Below are positions 1 to 6,000 of a DNA stretch of 39,821 bases, piece by piece. Origin of the DNA: a virus. Its lineage: Duplodnaviria; Heunggongvirae; Uroviricota; Caudoviricetes. Location: positions 1-39,821 of IMG/VR virus record IMGVR_UViG_3300045988_152494, one strand, 5' to 3'. The position numbers are program-made. Within the stretch, counting starts at the first letter, position 1; the number at the start of each line of letters is the position of its first letter.

Positions 1-3000
1 TTCGCTGAAAGTGGAATGTATCCATGGAGAACACTTTATCAGCCGGGAAATAATGCGGGCAACGGTGTTTAATTATATCGAATGTGATTACAATCGGTGG
101 CGGCGGCACAGTTGGTGTGGCGGCCTCAGTCCGGAACAATTTGAAAACAAGAACCTCGCTTAGGCCTGTGTCCATATTACGTGGGTAGGATCAGCTTTGG
201 GTTCACCGGCAATCAGAGACACATCCACGGTCTGACATTTCGTGGCGGCACTGATGCTTTTCACCACGGCCCGCCCAATCAGCCCGAGGAGTTGTCGCTG
301 TATGGTTTCAATCGCCCTCATCAGAACGGGTCCTCCTGTACTCTGGCTTTTTTCTTTTTCAGCGCGCCGGGATCTTCGGGTTCAGGCAGATAAGCATCAG
401 GCGGGCCGACACGGATTTCCGTCAGGGTGCCGTTCTGGTCCTGAGTAAACGTGACTTCCGAAACAAGCAGTTCGGTATTGTCGAAACCACAGACCGGATC
501 AAAGACAATCACCCGCTGGTTGGGCTGCCACAGCGTACCGTTACCCTGTCGCCAGCCCTGCACCACATAGGTGGTTTCATCCGTCCGCGCCGCCCGTTGT
601 CGGGCTTCAAAGTCAGCACGCGCAATACAGCCTGCCCCCGTGGCCTGCCCTGTCTGCCTGATATACATCGGACGGTAACGGGCAATAAATGCGTCCTCTG
701 TGCGGGCCCGCAGCACGGTGGTGGTGGCCTCACCAAAATCATCGTCGTTTCCGGCACGCTGCCCCGCCACCTGATAAACTGAAAACCGCTCCCGGATACT
801 CTTCTCCGTATCACAGGAAAGGATGTTTTCCCCAAGTACCAGCGCGGTATGTGCCCGCGTTGAGCCAATACCGCCAATCACCAGCCTGCCGTGCGGGTCG
901 TCATAAGCCAGCGCCTGCTGCTGACCGAGTATTTTGTTGATTACCTCAATCACCGTTTCACCGTGATCAGGCTGGACATCAGGAATAACACCCGACGGCG
1001 CACCGCTGTTCACCACCTCAATGCCGAAAGGCGCAGCAAGCGCCTGCGCAATCTGTACCAGCGATCGTCCGTTAAACTGTGTCGGTTCGGCTGCACAGTC
1101 AATCAGGTCAGCGGTCAGACTGCGTCCGGCAATACCGGTGCTGACCGAACGGGCATCGTAACGAACGGGCGTCGCCTCCACCCAGCCGGTGATCACCAGC
1201 TCATCACCAATCAGCACCTCCACTTTTGAACCGTTTTTAATGCGCGGCTGAAGCGTGGTGATACCCTCATCTCCCGGCCACTGGCGGGTGATCTCCACAC
1301 TGAAATCCCGCGCCAGTCGTTCAACACCGGCACCGATGCGCACCGATGTCCAGCCATTCCACTCCCGGCCATTTACCCGTAGCGTGACGTTATCGTTCAT
1401 TGCACTGGCACCTTCAGAGGGATCACCGGCACAAAGCCGGGATGCGTAATGGCATTACGCCGGATAATGTCCGCGTCACGCGCCGCGTTATCAAACCAGG
1501 TCGCCGCCAGCACCAGCGCGGGTAAAACCTCATCCGGTGTGCGCTGAATGATCCGTGCAGACTGTTCAAGGCGCGTGTTGATATCCGCATTCAGATCTGC
1601 TTTCACCCGGCGCAGCGCCAGAAACAGCGCATCGCTGGTTGTACGGGACAACTCCTTATCAATTGCCGTATTCAGTGTGTCGCGAATGTCAGTCAGTTCT
1701 TCCCACGTCGGCAGGTCAACCGTGTTTTTCACCGCCGGTGCATTGTTCAGTGCCGGATGCGTGACGGAAGGCCAGCCAGTGCTCTGCGCGGGTGTTGTTG
1801 CCTGCCCCACTGCGGAATTCTGCATCACCGCGGAAGTTGTTGGCGCAGGCAATCGGGTGACGGCATACGCCGCTTCGCTGATTGCGGTCGTACGAAGGGT
1901 GCTGGCAACCACGTTACGCTGCTGCGTAGCCGTGGCGGTGGTTTTACTGTCCGTTTTCCAGACGCCGCGCGGTTGCAGATCGCTGCCGAGGCTGACACCG
2001 GAAAGCGTTTTGATCATGGTGACCAGGTCGCTGGCGTTACCATAAAGGCGCTTCCCGGTACGCCACATTTTCTGCACCTGCTCAACGAAATTTTTGCCTG
2101 ACGATGGCGGCGGCAGAAGTACCGAGATATCCCCCTGCAACAGTCTGGCGGCATCCGATACGGCAGAATCCACCTCTTTCATCGCATCAGAAACATACCC
2201 AAGCATTGTGCTGGCATTACCGACGACGTCGTTCTGCACAAAATCCGCCACGCCATCGATACTGAAACCACTGAAACTGTCACTGATGCAGTCATCCAGT
2301 GCAGAACAGGATGACATCAGCGTCTGCGCCGTCGCCGCACCTGATGTGGGGTAAGAGAGTTCTCCCGCTTCGACAAACTTCAGGTCAAAGCGGACAATAC
2401 GCCCTTCACTCTTCGATGTGCTGACCCGAACCTCTCCGTCAACACAGACTTTCAGCTCACCGTAAGTCGGATGGACAAGCGTGCCGGGACCGGGTTTATT
2501 CAGCGCGTCAATCAGGCGATCGCGCTGGTCAAAGCAGTCATCTCCCACCACATAAGCCGTGATGGACGGGCGGAAAGTGATTTTCCCCAGGTCTTCGGTA
2601 TAGGGTTTGTCGCGGTTCGGGTATTCGTGCGTTTCCACACGACGACCGGTTCCCGCACTTTCTTCTTCAACCTTAAACGGCACACCGCGAAATGACGCGT
2701 CCTGAAGTCTGTCTTTCCACGTCATATATACTCCGAAAATTAAAAAGCCACCTATTAGAAGGTGGCCTTGTAATGAATTTTATTAATTAGCGAGTCAGAA
2801 ACAACGAATCTTTATACTTTTGCTGTTGTTCATTTAAATACTTAGCTGTTTCATCGCTGGCAAATGGAAATATTACCGTATTTTTAGGCATGGTAATTTC
2901 TTTTTTGTCCAGCGTCAGAGTAAACATAGGAACATACTGAGCAGAGTAACGCACCGCAGAAACGAGCTCTAGTTTAGACTCTTCAATAACACTTAAATTA

Positions 3001-6000
3001 TCCAGGCTAACTTTCTCTTCATCTTTTTTCTTTGACGCATTTAAAGTTTTTATTACTTTATTTAATTTCTCCTGAAAATCCTCCTTAAAGTTTTCAGGAT
3101 TGCCGTCGACAACAAGAATCTGTTCACCCTGATTATCTGGAAAAATAATCTTTGCACTTATCAATTTATTTTCTTTATAAACATCACCAAGTTTTATGGC
3201 TCCTCCAGATAACTGAATAATATGTTCATCTTTAAAGGAGATGTTGCCAGAGATTATGAGAGATGAAAAAATAGCCGCTGCTCCAAGAATTACACTTGCT
3301 GTGATATAGCCTTTCATTTTTCGCCTATTAACATTTTTCTAAATGTGCATTAATTCTATCACTCTATTTATGACTTACAACCAGCAATACATGTGAGGAG
3401 AATCCTGGCTACCAAAATCGGGTATAGCCAACATCGTGATTTATATCAATGCCACTGGAGCGTGTTTCCGTAACCCGCATACCTGGTGGCATATTTATAA
3501 ATGATACCTTGATCTCACCATCAACTTTTGGCGCGGTAGCTTTATTAATCATGAAGGGATTCGAGCCTGTGGCATCGGAGGCGTTGTTTGCCTGAGCCGG
3601 ATCCACCGCCGGATAAGGAGTGTATCCCCGTGCCGGTATTCCCGTCCCATAAGCATCATAAGCACCCGCGCCCCACTGCGCAGAGTTAATGGCATCGACC
3701 GTGTCACCGGAACTGTCGGTAAACCACTCAATAATTGGCTTCAGCTTGTCCCACATATCCTGAAACCACTTAACAACCGGCCCCCAGTTATTGATCACCA
3801 TCCCCATCGGCGACCAGGCAAAAACTTTCTTAAGGAGTTCCCAGCCAGCCTCAAAATAAGGACCAATGGTTTCCCAGAGCTTCTTGAAATAAGGTCCGAC
3901 AACATCCCAGTTAGTGATAATTAATCCCGCAGCCAGGGCTATCGCCGTCGCAATCATGCCAATCGGCGTCATCGACATGATCCTGCTGACAATGCTGATG
4001 GCACTGCCCACGCCCATCAATCCCAGTTTCAGAATCGCAAGACCGGCAGCAAGCCCGACGACGCCGCGAATAACCCGGGGATTTTCATCCGCAAACTTCG
4101 TGAATTTTCCCCCCAACTCCCCCAGCCATTGCGTGATATTTTTGGCGTCACCAGAAAATGCGCCGCCAATAGCCGCAAGGCCGTTAGTTGCGGTCCCCGT
4201 CATTGCCTCCCACAGGTTGGACAGCGTACCAAGCTGTGCCTGAACACGTTTATTCAGGCTGGCCTGTTTATTCATCTTTTGCTGGATCTGATCGTAACCA
4301 TCCTTTCCTTTATCGATCAGCGCATTGACCACCTGAAGGGTTTCGGCATCATCACCAAATATTGCCTTAAGTACACCTGTTCGCTTAACGTCGGTAAGTT
4401 TTCGCAGCTTTGCCAGTTGCTTAAACATGTTATCAAGACCGCCAAAACTTCCTTTGCCGTCAGTAAAATCGAGCTGTACCCCGAGTTTCTGACGGGCCAT
4501 AACTTTATTGACGTCCCTGATTTTCTTAACGCTTAATCCGGACTGGATAACTTTTCGCAGGGCATTACCTGCCGACTCCCCGTTCATCCCCATCTGATCC
4601 ATCATGACGCTGATGGGGGCAAGGCTCTGTGCAGCCTGAAGACCGTCCTTGTTCACCATCTTCAGAACAGAACTGGTTTTAGTGAAGAAGGACAACATGT
4701 TGGTATCGTCAACGCCCAGATAAAACGCCTTCTGGATAGTGTCGAACAGCCCCATCATGTCTTCTGACGCCGTTCCGGTAGCATCCTGCATCTTTGCAGC
4801 AAACTCAGCAGCCGCTTCCGGTGTTTTTTTCAGTTGTACCGCAAGATAAGCTGTCGCTTTACCCACACCGCCAAGAATATTTTCTGCCGGGATCCCCTGA
4901 CGCACCAGCATCTGCATCATGTTCTGGAAATCAGCCGTTGTACCGGGTAGCTGGTTACCCAGGCCAATAGCCAGTTTATTGATGTCCTGAAAGCTCTTTC
5001 CGACCTCGCCGTTCGCATCCATCATGGCGACTTTCAGCCCGGTGGCGGCGTTTTCCTGATCGGCATAAGATTTCAGGGAAAGCGTCAGACCCGCTGCCAG
5101 TCCGCCACCAAGCGCCAGCCCACCCTGTGATGCTTCTTCCGCCTGGCGTTTAAATCCCCGGATTTTCTTTTGCATTTTCGACAGCGCGGGAGAAAGTCTG
5201 TCGACACCGGTGATCAACGCCTTAAGCTCAAATTCAGCCATGTGTGCGTTTCTCCTGCTCTATCCTGTTTGCCTGACTGACCAGCAAGGGAATTTCACTG
5301 ATCGGCATATTCAGCAATTCGAAGGGATTAATGCGCCAGTAACTGGCGCAGTCAAAGAAGCGATCAGTGAGGTATTCAGCCGTCAGGCCTGGAGGAAAAA
5401 ACCGGCCACAAGCCACGCCGCTGCATTCAGGTCTGCCGGAGACATCTGGTCGACAGAGCTTTGCGGCACTTTCGCCAGCCGCACAATGTATTTCGACACC
5501 ACATGCGCCAGAAGTCTGACGGACTCATCCTGATTCATCTGGTAGGGATACCCCAGCTCGCGGACATCCTTCCCGGTGGGTTCATCAAACTCCAGTACGG
5601 AAAGTGTCTCACCATGAGCGATAATCGGTTTCTTTAACTCAAGCTCTTTCATTACTGGTAATCCCCTTCTTCACCGTGGAACTCAAGATCAACCGTGCCT
5701 TCTTCGGCATTATGGTTCGCTTCGCCGTGCAGCCAGGCAGACGACAGTACATAGACCTGACCGTTCGCCAGCTCGGCAGTGATAGTCATCTCATCAGACG
5801 AGGTGATTTTGTTCACCGGAAAATTCTTCGGCACCTTGAAAGTCCCTTTGACATAAGGCGCACGGTGAGTTTCCTTGCGGTCCACTGAACCGTCCAGGCC
5901 GATGATGTCATCATTGACCGTCCTGTTCATGGGCACCTCAATGCCGCCGGTCAGCGATAGCTGTTGACCGTCAATTTTGAAATAACAGGTTCCCCCGATA

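What the first reader, a model, noticed from the sequence alone, without database searches (positions are those of the whole stretch)
2742..3408. AT-rich moron with its own terminator inserted between tape measure and DNA circularisation genes
Seen in sequence: a 176-aa membrane-anchored/secreted K/E-rich protein gene of low GC lies between two conserved tail genes, with an AT-rich promoter-like spacer (3318..3408) upstream and a canonical hairpin plus T5 terminator (2742..2766) 20 nt before the next tail gene. Inference: independently expressed lysogenic-conversion or exclusion gene; a terminator inside the late operon implies Q-dependent readthrough.
Basis: partly seen in the sequence, partly recalled or inferred. 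Interest (0 to 1): 0.5.

Follow-up and report, generated by a model that had tools for sequence, protein, structure and literature searches.

The report
Envelope-protein moron in a tail-gene hot spot
A small, AT-rich accessory gene with a promoter-like site and its own terminator sits between two tail genes of an E. coli SfV-like prophage; the same gap holds at least five different membrane or secreted-protein genes in related prophages, so it is a typical phage "moron", probably a phage-exclusion factor, and its function is untested.

Summary
ORF 2787..3317(-) encodes 176 aa at 34% GC between tail genes at 51-57% GC. It follows a 91-nt spacer with one sigma-70-like site (3380..3353) and precedes a strong hairpin plus T-run (2769..2742), 16 nt before the next tail gene.

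The prophage is SfV-like. Of 1,094 complete E. coli genomes with this junction, about 179 carry this gene. 532 carry an empty 61-nt junction, as do the phages SfV, SfI and SfII. Others carry four unrelated low-GC genes. All five cargo proteins have a signal peptide, lipobox or N-terminal membrane helix.

So this is dispensable cargo in a hot spot, not a tail part. The gene is under purifying selection (dN/dS 0.08). It belongs to a family of about 78 sequence clusters with no Pfam, NCBIfam or PADLOC match. Its confident model (pLDDT 92) has no solved structural relative.

The terminator is not specific to the moron, because empty junctions have one too. A Q antiterminator gene is present, so readthrough is plausible.

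Likely role: an inner-membrane-anchored periplasmic protein acting at the envelope, probably in superinfection exclusion. That role is inferred. It is a new member of a known kind.

The parts
2787..3317 (-). Cargo ORF, 176 aa. Belongs to PHROG 5485, whose function is unknown.
   Evidence: ORF listing. PHROG 5485, E 3.8e-108, full length. No Pfam, NCBIfam or PADLOC match. dN/dS is 0.078 between two Leclercia-type copies. AlphaFold model has pLDDT 92.
3249..3305 (-). Codons for residues 5-23, the predicted N-terminal membrane helix (a signal anchor). No lipobox and no clear signal-peptidase site.
   Evidence: Kyte-Doolittle maximum of 2.11 at residues 5-23. Helix at residues 2-23 in the model. 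The hydrophobic N-terminus is conserved across the 57-sequence family alignment.
2790..3236 (-). Codons for residues 28-176, the predicted periplasmic domain: a beta-hairpin followed by beta-beta-alpha-beta-beta-alpha.
3318..3408 (-). AT-rich spacer (GC 0.33) between the tape measure stop codon and the cargo start codon.
   Evidence: Sequence. GC value.
3353..3380 (-). Sigma-70-like promoter candidate: -35 TTGTAA (3380..3375), 16-nt spacer, TG-n-TAGAAT (-10 at 3358..3353).
   Evidence: Only minus-strand match in 1..12000. 9 of 12 consensus positions plus an extended -10. Both hexamers are invariant in 77 IMG/VR copies. This is a consensus match only, and the ORF is equally invariant, so the conservation adds little.
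2742..2769 (-). Intrinsic terminator: 10-pair hairpin (2769..2744) plus a T5 run (2746..2742; T6 in most other copies).
   Evidence: Scan. -17 kcal/mol, z -5.6. The only stem variant among 77 copies is C>T at 2761, which keeps a G-U pair. Analogous hairpins with different stems sit at the same place in the other cassettes and in the empty junction.
2726..2741 (-). Backbone sequence shared by all junction variants (CGGAGTwTAT). It carries the ribosome-binding site of the DNA-circularisation gene and marks the right-hand edge of the variable segment.
   Evidence: Junction comparison across variants.
2742..3390 (-). The moron unit as defined by population data: a low-diversity block made of promoter-like site, ORF and terminator stem.
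   Evidence: In 77 IMG/VR copies the ORF differs from the window at 1.6 sites per kb, against 17-34 per kb in the flanks. Common polymorphisms in the non-coding spacers (3391, 3399, 3404; 2741, 2729) lie at or outside the edges of this unit; 3321/3322 vary in 2 copies and 2761 in 3.
3409..5241 (-). Upstream backbone gene: tail tape measure protein, 610 aa.
   Evidence: PF10145, 1.1e-26. Tape measure PHROGs.
1397..2725 (-). Downstream backbone gene: Mu N-like DNA-circularisation / baseplate hub protein, 442 aa. It must be transcribed through the terminator.
   Evidence: PF07157, 6.5e-34. PHROG 184, baseplate hub.
18070..18759 (-). Q antiterminator gene. It offers a plausible means of reading through the terminator during lytic growth.
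   Evidence: PF06323, 9.5e-96. Promoter-like site at 18086..18058 and hairpin-plus-T sites at 18002..17976 and 17888..17872 just downstream.

Best explanation
The segment from about 2742 to 3390 is a moron, an autonomous accessory cassette made of a promoter-like site, one gene and an intrinsic terminator. It occupies a cargo hot spot between the tape measure gene and the DNA-circularisation (hub) gene of an SfV-like E. coli prophage with a Mu-type tail.

Its product is predicted to be a bitopic inner-membrane protein. An N-terminal signal-anchor helix (residues about 2-23) holds a 150-residue alpha/beta domain in the periplasm.

The proposed mechanism has four steps, each marked for how well it is supported:
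1. Shown: the gene is dispensable for the phage and is exchanged between diverged prophage backbones by recombination close to its edges.
2. Predicted from sequence: the protein is exported and stays tethered to the outer face of the inner membrane.
3. Inferred: in a lysogen it is transcribed from its own promoter and stops at its own terminator, so the downstream baseplate genes stay silent. During lytic growth, Q-modified RNA polymerase coming from the late promoter reads through the terminator.
4. Inferred by analogy and context: the periplasmic domain interferes with incoming phages at the envelope, most likely at the DNA-entry step after adsorption. This would be superinfection exclusion, which benefits both host and prophage.
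For: Presence or absence in collinear relatives:
- The flanks occur in 1,094 of 5,426 complete E. coli genomes, but the cargo occurs in only 179.
- The empty 61-nt junction occurs in 532 genomes and in the plaque-forming phages SfV, SfI and SfII.

Hot spot:
- Four other unrelated cargo genes sit in the same gap. They are a 164/170-aa secreted protein (85 genomes), a tRNA_anti-like OB-fold membrane protein on the opposite strand (79 genomes), a 225-aa lipoprotein (55 genomes), and a 162-aa signal-peptide protein.
- All five have GC of 0.31-0.42 and an N-terminal export signal.

Composition: GC is 0.34 against 0.51-0.57 in the flanks.

Mobility:
- The cargo ORF differs at 1.6 sites per kb among 77 IMG/VR copies, while the flanks differ at 17-34 per kb.
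- Similarity of the downstream N gene does not track cargo type.
- In Leclercia-type prophages the pattern reverses: cargo dS is 1.07 against 0.2-0.3 for the flanks.

Real gene:
- dN/dS is 0.078.
- 78 clusters at 50% identity were found among 1.84 billion representative proteins.
- The AlphaFold model has pLDDT 92.

Not a tail part:
- It has a membrane helix.
- Distant relatives (23% identity) lie in integrase/resolvase/Mrr islands with no tail genes nearby.

Transcription signals:
- Promoter-like site.
- Terminator at -17 kcal/mol, recurring with different stems in each cassette.
- Q gene present.

Analogy: HK97 gp15, the first moron described, also lies beside the tape measure gene. It inserts into the inner membrane and blocks genome entry (PMC3594210). 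The only viral structural neighbour is a phage lipoprotein, which is another envelope-tethered form.
Against: - No expression data exist. The promoter is only a 9/12 consensus match in AT-rich DNA, where such matches arise easily, and the region-wide count of matches is below the chance expectation.
- Leclercia-type copies have weaker promoter-like sites or none.
- DNA at 34% GC is a typical H-NS target in E. coli (established knowledge), so the gene may be silenced in lysogens.
- The gene points the same way as the late operon, so late-only expression would also explain its placement.
- A terminator is also present at empty junctions, so it does not by itself show an autonomous transcription unit.
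- Membrane topology (N-in, C-out) is predicted, not measured.
Confidence: 0.5

Rival explanations
1. It is a lysogenic-conversion factor unrelated to phage defence. A prophage-expressed envelope protein would change host physiology or host interaction, for example adhesion, serum or stress resistance, or envelope homeostasis, as lambda Lom and Bor do.
For: The architecture and envelope targeting fit this as well as they fit the best explanation. The cargo is spread across E. coli from humans, poultry, cattle, pigeons and soil. Moron proteins with such roles are documented (PMC3594210). There is no match to any known defence family.
Against: Distant family members sit next to an Mrr-type restriction nuclease and recombinases in small mobile islands, a context more typical of phage-related conflict. 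All five alternative cargoes at one tail-gene junction are envelope proteins, and the gap lies beside the tape measure gene. This parallels the known entry blocker HK97 gp15 (PMC3594210).
Confidence: 0.22
2. It is a late-only accessory protein. It would be made with the tail genes by Q-driven transcription and act in the periplasm of the lysing cell. For example, it could stop progeny or co-infecting phages from ejecting DNA into doomed cells or debris, or it could tune lysis. It would not be expressed in lysogens.
For: It has the same orientation as the late operon and lies inside it. The promoter evidence is weak, and absent in some homologues. AT-rich DNA is likely to be silenced by H-NS (established knowledge). 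The gene has kept the same position in prophages whose cargo proteins are only 53-59% identical.
Against: The OB-fold cargo at the same hot spot is on the opposite strand, so it cannot be part of the late transcript. That argues the site generally hosts independently transcribed genes. Each same-strand cassette ends in its own terminator, which is pointless for a purely late gene. Family members also occur outside phages.
Confidence: 0.15
3. It is a conserved tail-assembly or structural protein of this phage lineage, that is, a core gene and not cargo.
For: Homologues lie at the same junction in Leclercia- and Lelliottia-type prophages, and the gene is under strong purifying selection.
Against: It is absent from the viable phages SfV, SfI and SfII and from 532 E. 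coli genomes with an empty junction. Unrelated genes replace it in others. An N-terminal membrane anchor is incompatible with cytoplasmic tail assembly. Composition is foreign in every lineage. Relatives occur in islands that have no tail genes.
Confidence: 0.02

Closest known systems
HK97 gp15 moron (superinfection exclusion protein; Juhala et al. 2000, Cumby et al. 2012, reviewed in PMC3594210)
   Same: An accessory gene inserted in the tail operon directly beside the tape measure gene, with deviant GC and its own promoter and terminator elements. Its product goes to the inner membrane. Relatives also occur outside prophages.
   Different: There is no sequence relationship. gp15 is a YebO-like small membrane protein, whereas this protein has a 150-residue periplasmic alpha/beta domain. 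gp15 lies upstream of the tape measure gene and this gene lies downstream. Prophage expression and the block to DNA entry are demonstrated for gp15 but untested here.
TP-J34 Ltp-type superinfection exclusion lipoproteins (PMC3952083)
   Same: A prophage-encoded protein tethered to the outer face of the cytoplasmic membrane, with a soluble domain facing incoming phage. From my own knowledge (Bebeacua et al. 2013), Ltp targets the tape measure protein.
T4 Sp and Imm, and P22 SieA (membrane-located entry blockers; SieA in PMC10883804)
   Same: Small membrane-anchored phage proteins that act after adsorption to stop genome entry.
   Different: No sequence or fold similarity was detected. The genomic positions differ. 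T4 Sp and Imm are not prophage genes.
Lambda lom and bor (envelope-protein morons in or near late genes)
   Same: Low-GC, independently transcribed envelope-protein genes embedded among late genes of a lambdoid prophage that uses Q for late transcription.
   Different: Lom and Bor are an outer-membrane beta-barrel and a lipoprotein, and they have host-interaction roles. This protein is predicted to be an inner-membrane signal-anchor protein with an unrelated fold.
'Lipoprotein' A0A2H4P829 of Pseudomonas phage ventosus (BFVD predicted structure)
   Same: It is the only significant structural neighbour found (Foldseek E 7e-7, TM-scores 0.56 and 0.66). It is also phage-encoded and envelope-tethered.
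   Different: It has 16% identity and 144 aa, is named a lipoprotein in UniProt whereas this protein is predicted to use a membrane-helix anchor, and has unknown function. Its genomic context was not examined.

Membership tests
Moron (as defined by Juhala et al. 2000; PMC3594210) | Present in some and absent from other otherwise collinear related phage genomes | tested here: met
   The flanks occur in 1,094 E. coli genomes, the cargo in 179 and the empty junction in 532. SfV, SfI and SfII are empty.
Moron (as defined by Juhala et al. 2000; PMC3594210) | Nucleotide composition differs from the surrounding genes | tested here: met
   GC is 0.343 against 0.513 and 0.566 in the flanks. The same holds for homologues in Leclercia-type prophages.
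Moron (as defined by Juhala et al. 2000; PMC3594210) | Own promoter upstream | tested here: inconclusive
   TTGTAA-16-TG-n-TAGAAT lies at 3380..3353 and is correctly placed. It is only a consensus match in AT-rich DNA, and it is weaker or absent in Leclercia-type copies.
Moron (as defined by Juhala et al. 2000; PMC3594210) | Own terminator downstream | tested here: met
   Hairpin plus T-run at 2769..2742, -17 kcal/mol, z -5.6. Each cassette has a different stem. Caveat: the empty junction has a terminator too.
Moron (as defined by Juhala et al. 2000; PMC3594210) | Expressed from the repressed prophage | not testable with these tools
   Needs RNA-seq, 5'-end mapping or a reporter fusion in a lysogen.
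PHROG 5485 | Full-length profile match | tested here: met
   E 3.8e-108 over residues 1-176 of 176. The family has no assigned function.
HK97 gp15 / YebO-type exclusion proteins | Sequence homology to gp15 or YebO | not tested
   Pfam returned nothing at all at E up to 0.1, and none of 57 family members hit a relevant family. I did not check that a YebO model is in the Pfam copy used, and I made no direct comparison with gp15.
HK97 gp15 / YebO-type exclusion proteins | Blocks phage genome entry when expressed from the prophage | not testable with these tools
   Needs plating-efficiency, adsorption and DNA-entry assays.
Cor / Llp / Ltp-type exclusion lipoproteins | Lipobox with an invariant cysteine for lipid anchoring | tested here: not met
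   The protein contains no cysteine.
Known anti-phage defence systems (PADLOC-DB v2) | Match to a defence-protein profile | tested here: not met
   No match for this protein, for a distant relative, or for the other four cargo proteins.
Mu-type tail structural or assembly proteins | Conserved in all functional phages that have this tail module | tested here: not met
   Absent from SfV, SfI, SfII and SfIV and from most related prophages.

The most novel reading that the evidence does not exclude
The junction between the tape measure and hub genes of SfV-like phages could be a dedicated slot for envelope-targeted exclusion genes. On this reading the 176-aa protein founds a new family of superinfection-exclusion proteins with a fold absent from the PDB. 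It would be tethered to the periplasmic face of the inner membrane and would intercept the ejected tape measure protein or tail tip of incoming myophages. Its specificity would be loosely linked to the neighbouring tape measure allele: carriers of the 176-aa gene share tape measure genes that are 97.4-99.8% identical, against 93.5-97.5% identity to non-carriers.
Probability: 0.3. Interest if true: 0.6.

Novelty: new member of a known kind. Interest (0 to 1): 0.4.

Why it matters
Roughly one complete E. coli genome in five carries this prophage tail module. About 30% of those with the module, roughly 400 genomes, carry one of the four counted envelope-protein cargo genes in the same gap, and the 176-aa gene is the commonest of them. 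None of the five cargo proteins has a known function, though one carries a tRNA_anti-like OB-fold Pfam domain, and the 176-aa family matches no Pfam, NCBIfam or PADLOC profile.

If these genes are entry blockers, the slot is a compact, easily screened source of new exclusion proteins. That bears on phage-therapy host range and on how prophages shape phage susceptibility in E. coli.

The junction also gives a clean natural series for studying how morons move and how terminators are tolerated inside Q-dependent late operons. The series comprises the empty site, five cargoes, both orientations, and a different terminator stem in each.

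Tried and rejected
- Pfam, NCBIfam and PADLOC scans of the protein found nothing, and Pfam and PADLOC scans of relatives also found nothing.
- A sequence-profile search against PDB chains found nothing below E 0.6.
- Foldseek against AFDB50 could not run because the library was unavailable.
- tblastn of this protein and of a Pseudomonas relative against 50,697 GenBank phage records found no match. The gene is therefore known only from prophages, not from sequenced isolated phages.
- An Rfam scan of 2500..3700 gave only sub-threshold attenuator-like hits on the terminator hairpin. 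No riboswitch or small RNA was found.
- Literature searches for the protein accessions, for PHROG 5485, or for a described hot spot at this junction returned nothing relevant.
- The idea that the upstream 180-aa gene in the Pseudomonas islands is a paralogue was rejected (hhalign probability 0.3%).
- The Tab and Tai tail-assembly blockers were considered as analogues. They were set aside as a mechanistic match because, as far as I know, both are cytoplasmic; neither paper mentions a transmembrane segment, and both sit elsewhere in the genome, Tab between the terminase genes and Tai mostly upstream of the packaging module.

Full report
**1. What is in the sequence**

On the minus strand, ORF 2787..3317 (ATG start, 176 aa) lies between two tail genes:
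- 3409..5241, a tape measure protein (PF10145, 1.1e-26).
- 1397..2725, a Mu N-like DNA-circularisation / baseplate hub protein (PF07157, 6.5e-34).

The ORF has a GC of 0.343. Its 91-nt upstream spacer is at 0.330 and the 61 nt downstream are at 0.295. The flanking genes are at 0.513 and 0.566. No other part of the late-gene region of the window (about 160..17,800) falls below 40% GC.

Downstream of the stop codon there is a 10-pair hairpin (2769..2744) followed by T5 (2746..2742). As RNA it folds at -17.0 kcal/mol, z = -5.6, and none of 200 shuffles folds as well.

The spacer holds one sigma-70-like site, TTGTAA-16-TG-n-TAGAAT at 3380..3353. It is the only minus-strand match in 12 kb. The total number of such matches in the region (5) is below the shuffle expectation (8.1). 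The site is therefore well placed but is not statistical evidence on its own.

Rfam finds no RNA family here.

**2. What the element is: cargo in a hot spot**

The window is an SfV-like lambdoid prophage of E. coli with a Mu-type contractile tail. The 1.6-kb junction region matches 1,094 of 5,426 complete E. coli genomes. Only 172 of those cover the insert. The phages SfV, SfI, SfII and vB_EcoM-689R6 match only the flanks.

Reading the junctions directly shows at least seven states:

| Junction state | Notes | Complete E. coli genomes |
|---|---|---|
| Empty | 61-nt spacer; also in SfV, SfI, SfII | 532 |
| This 176-aa gene | N-terminal membrane helix | 179 |
| 164/170-aa protein | Cleavable signal peptide; phage SKA5 type | 85 |
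| 148-aa OB-fold protein | tRNA_anti-like (PF12869); N-terminal membrane helix; opposite strand | 79 |
| 225-aa lipoprotein | LLGGC lipobox | 55 |
| 162-aa protein | Signal peptide | Seen in strain 720632; not counted |
| Tight 24-nt junction | SfIV type; no hairpin | Seen in SfIV and strain D8; not counted |

All five cargo genes have GC of 0.31-0.42, and all five products carry an N-terminal export signal. The gene is therefore dispensable for a functional phage. It is one of several interchangeable accessory genes that all encode envelope proteins.

**3. The cassette moves as a unit**

- I examined 77 IMG/VR prophage contigs that carry the gene. In 73 of them a single alignment spans tape measure, cargo and N gene, so the gene sits in the same junction.
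- The ORF differs from the window at 1.6 sites per kb. The flanking tail genes differ at 17-34 sites per kb (the same picture holds in three complete genomes).
- The common polymorphisms in the non-coding spacers lie at 3391-3404 and at 2741/2729; 3321/3322 vary in only two copies. The promoter-like hexamers are invariant, and the terminator stem carries only a C>T change at 2761 in three copies, which keeps a G-U pair.
- The low-diversity block, about 2742..3390, therefore coincides with promoter-like site, ORF and terminator.
- Similarity of the downstream N gene is not congruent with cargo type. For example, the N gene of strain LT2-3 (176-aa cargo) is 99.1-99.2% identical to those of strains carrying the 164-aa or OB-fold cargo, but only 97.3% identical to the window. 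Tape measure genes cluster weakly by cargo.
- This pattern indicates recent spread of the cassette across diverged backbones by recombination near its edges.

**4. Older relatives**

Proteins 52-59% identical occur in Leclercia, Lelliottia and related prophages at the same junction. They again have low GC (0.35-0.37 against 0.48-0.56 in the flanks). Each has its own hairpin plus T-run, followed by the conserved ribosome-binding site of the hub gene.

Between two such copies, dN/dS is 0.078 at dS 1.07. The adjacent N and P genes have dS of only 0.2-0.3. The gene is thus under strong purifying selection, and its history differs from that of its neighbours.

It is not met.

**5. The protein**

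- It is a full-length member of PHROG 5485, which has unknown function.
- It has no match in Pfam, NCBIfam, PADLOC or PDB sequences.
- Every database name for it is 'hypothetical'.
- A profile search of 1.84 billion representative proteins found 78 clusters, nearly all 165-200 aa long.
- The 57-sequence alignment shows a conserved hydrophobic N-terminus and two motifs, G-x-V-x-L-G-x-V-Y-x-E and Y-x-S-E-x-x-P-x-F-x-L.
- With that alignment, AlphaFold2 gives a confident model (pLDDT 92, pTM 0.77). It has a helix at residues 2-23, a beta-hairpin at 33-42, then a beta-beta-alpha-beta-beta-alpha domain.
- The N-terminal segment has the only strong hydropathy peak (2.11 at residues 5-23). There is no cysteine and no obvious signal-peptidase site.
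- I therefore read it as an uncleaved signal anchor with the domain in the periplasm. That orientation is a prediction.
- Foldseek against predicted viral structures finds one significant neighbour, a protein named 'Lipoprotein' from Pseudomonas phage ventosus (E 7e-7). It is another envelope-tethered form of the same fold.
- Distant family members (about 23% identity) in Pseudomonas and marine gammaproteobacteria lie in small integrative islands. Their neighbours include a resolvase, an Mrr-type nuclease, a serine recombinase, or an integrase plus a DUF5906 protein. There are no tail genes nearby.
- The family is therefore general mobile-element cargo and is not tied to tails.

**6. The terminator and Q**

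- The empty junction also carries a hairpin plus T6 (-14.8 kcal/mol), 16 nt before the hub gene. The SfII record annotates it as a putative rho-independent terminator.
- Every same-strand cassette ends in a hairpin with a different stem sequence. Homology between variants resumes at the T-run and the CGGAG ribosome-binding site.
- In the opposite-strand OB-fold variant, a strong hairpin instead follows the tape measure gene.
- A terminator at this position is thus a property of the junction in most lineages and is not unique to this moron. SfIV-type phages lack one.
- The essential hub and baseplate genes lie directly downstream, with no room for a promoter. They must be transcribed by readthrough.
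- The window encodes a Q antiterminator (18070..18759, PF06323, 9.5e-96). A promoter-like site lies at its 3' end and two hairpin-plus-T sites follow.
- A second strong hairpin plus T-run lies inside the late operon at 12941..12914.
- All of this fits the established lambda model, in which Q-modified RNA polymerase ignores terminators. It is anatomy, not a demonstration.

**7. Most likely mechanism**

- Shown: this is a dispensable, horizontally exchanged, selected gene in a cargo hot spot.
- Predicted: its product is an inner-membrane-anchored periplasmic protein.
- Inferred: in lysogens it is transcribed from its own promoter and stopped by its terminator, which keeps the baseplate genes silent. 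During lytic growth Q allows readthrough.
- Inferred by analogy: it acts on incoming phages at the envelope, probably at DNA entry.

The closest precedent is HK97 gp15, the original moron. It lies beside the tape measure gene, inserts into the inner membrane and blocks genome entry (PMC3594210). Ltp-type lipoproteins (PMC3952083) and P22 SieA (PMC10883804) show the same logic.

My confidence in each step:

| Claim | Confidence |
|---|---|
| It is cargo (a moron) | about 0.9 |
| It is located in the envelope | about 0.85 |
| It is expressed in lysogens | about 0.55 |
| It functions in exclusion or defence | about 0.4 |

The rivals are a non-defence conversion factor, a late-only periplasmic helper, and a tail component. 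The last is effectively excluded.

**8. Novelty**

The kind of element is well known. What is new is descriptive. The tape measure/hub junction of SfV-like prophages is a hot spot that, in the sample examined, holds only envelope-targeted genes. Its commonest occupant belongs to an uncharacterised family with a confidently predicted fold that has no solved relative. I found no paper describing either point. Interest is moderate.

Noticed in passing
window 25967..27574 (+), next to the cI-like repressor at 25132..25860 (+): A 535-aa SIR2-domain protein (PF13289) is a full-length match to the PADLOC candidate defence family PDC-S25 (1.2e-235) and a weaker match to ThsA. It lies in the lowest-GC stretch of the window (about 0.29). 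It is probably a second, defence-type moron in the immunity region.
   Followed up: partly
window 11..163 (+) and 160..321 (-): An IS3-type transposase C-terminal fragment (rve_2, 1.3e-15) abuts a 53-aa stub of the Mu gp45-like baseplate gene. In the near-identical prophage of strain ECE228 that gene is intact and is followed by gp46, gp47, ymfQ, stfP and pinE. In this strain the tail module therefore appears interrupted, and the prophage may be defective.
   Followed up: partly
Empty junctions, e.g. L001:1936-1974 (SfII) and L013:1930-1990: 532 E. coli genomes with no cargo still keep a hairpin plus T6 terminator between the tape measure and hub genes. SfIV-type phages have a tight 24-nt junction with no hairpin. 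It is unexplained why a terminator persists inside the late operon without a moron; it could be a scar, a landing pad, or an expression or RNA-stability element.
   Followed up: partly
window 12914..12941 (-): A strong hairpin (12 pairs, 7 G-C) plus T-run lies in the gap between the 577-aa ORF 12971..14704 and the 413-aa ORF 11536..12777 (neither identified here). It is another internal terminator-like site in the late operon.
   Followed up: no
window 33462..35700 and 36179..39769: Beyond the prophage integrase (32177..33340) there is a second integrase-family gene (33462..34565) and a 296-aa ORF with no Pfam match in a low-GC island (about 0.31). After these come a Tn3-family transposase (36179..39157) and a resolvase (39317..39769).
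   Followed up: no
window 21735..22229 (-) and 24260..24805 (-): A 164-aa ORF in a moderately low-GC part of the early/nin region gives a borderline match to the type VI secretion protein VasI (PF11319, 5.3e-6, just above the cutoff). A YdaT-toxin-like gene (PF06254) sits next to the replication genes.
   Followed up: no
L015:5634-7534, L018:5935-7531: Distant family members in Pseudomonas and marine islands sit immediately beside a divergently oriented small resolvase/invertase gene. In L015 the family member also follows a 180-aa protein with a hydrophobic, signal-peptide-like N-terminus that is unrelated to the family (hhalign probability 0.3%). An invertase-controlled switch was not examined.
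   Followed up: no
window 3399: The window has T at this position, in the spacer just downstream of the tape measure stop codon, while all 75 aligned IMG/VR copies have C. This is a private variant that lies outside the promoter-like hexamers.
   Followed up: no
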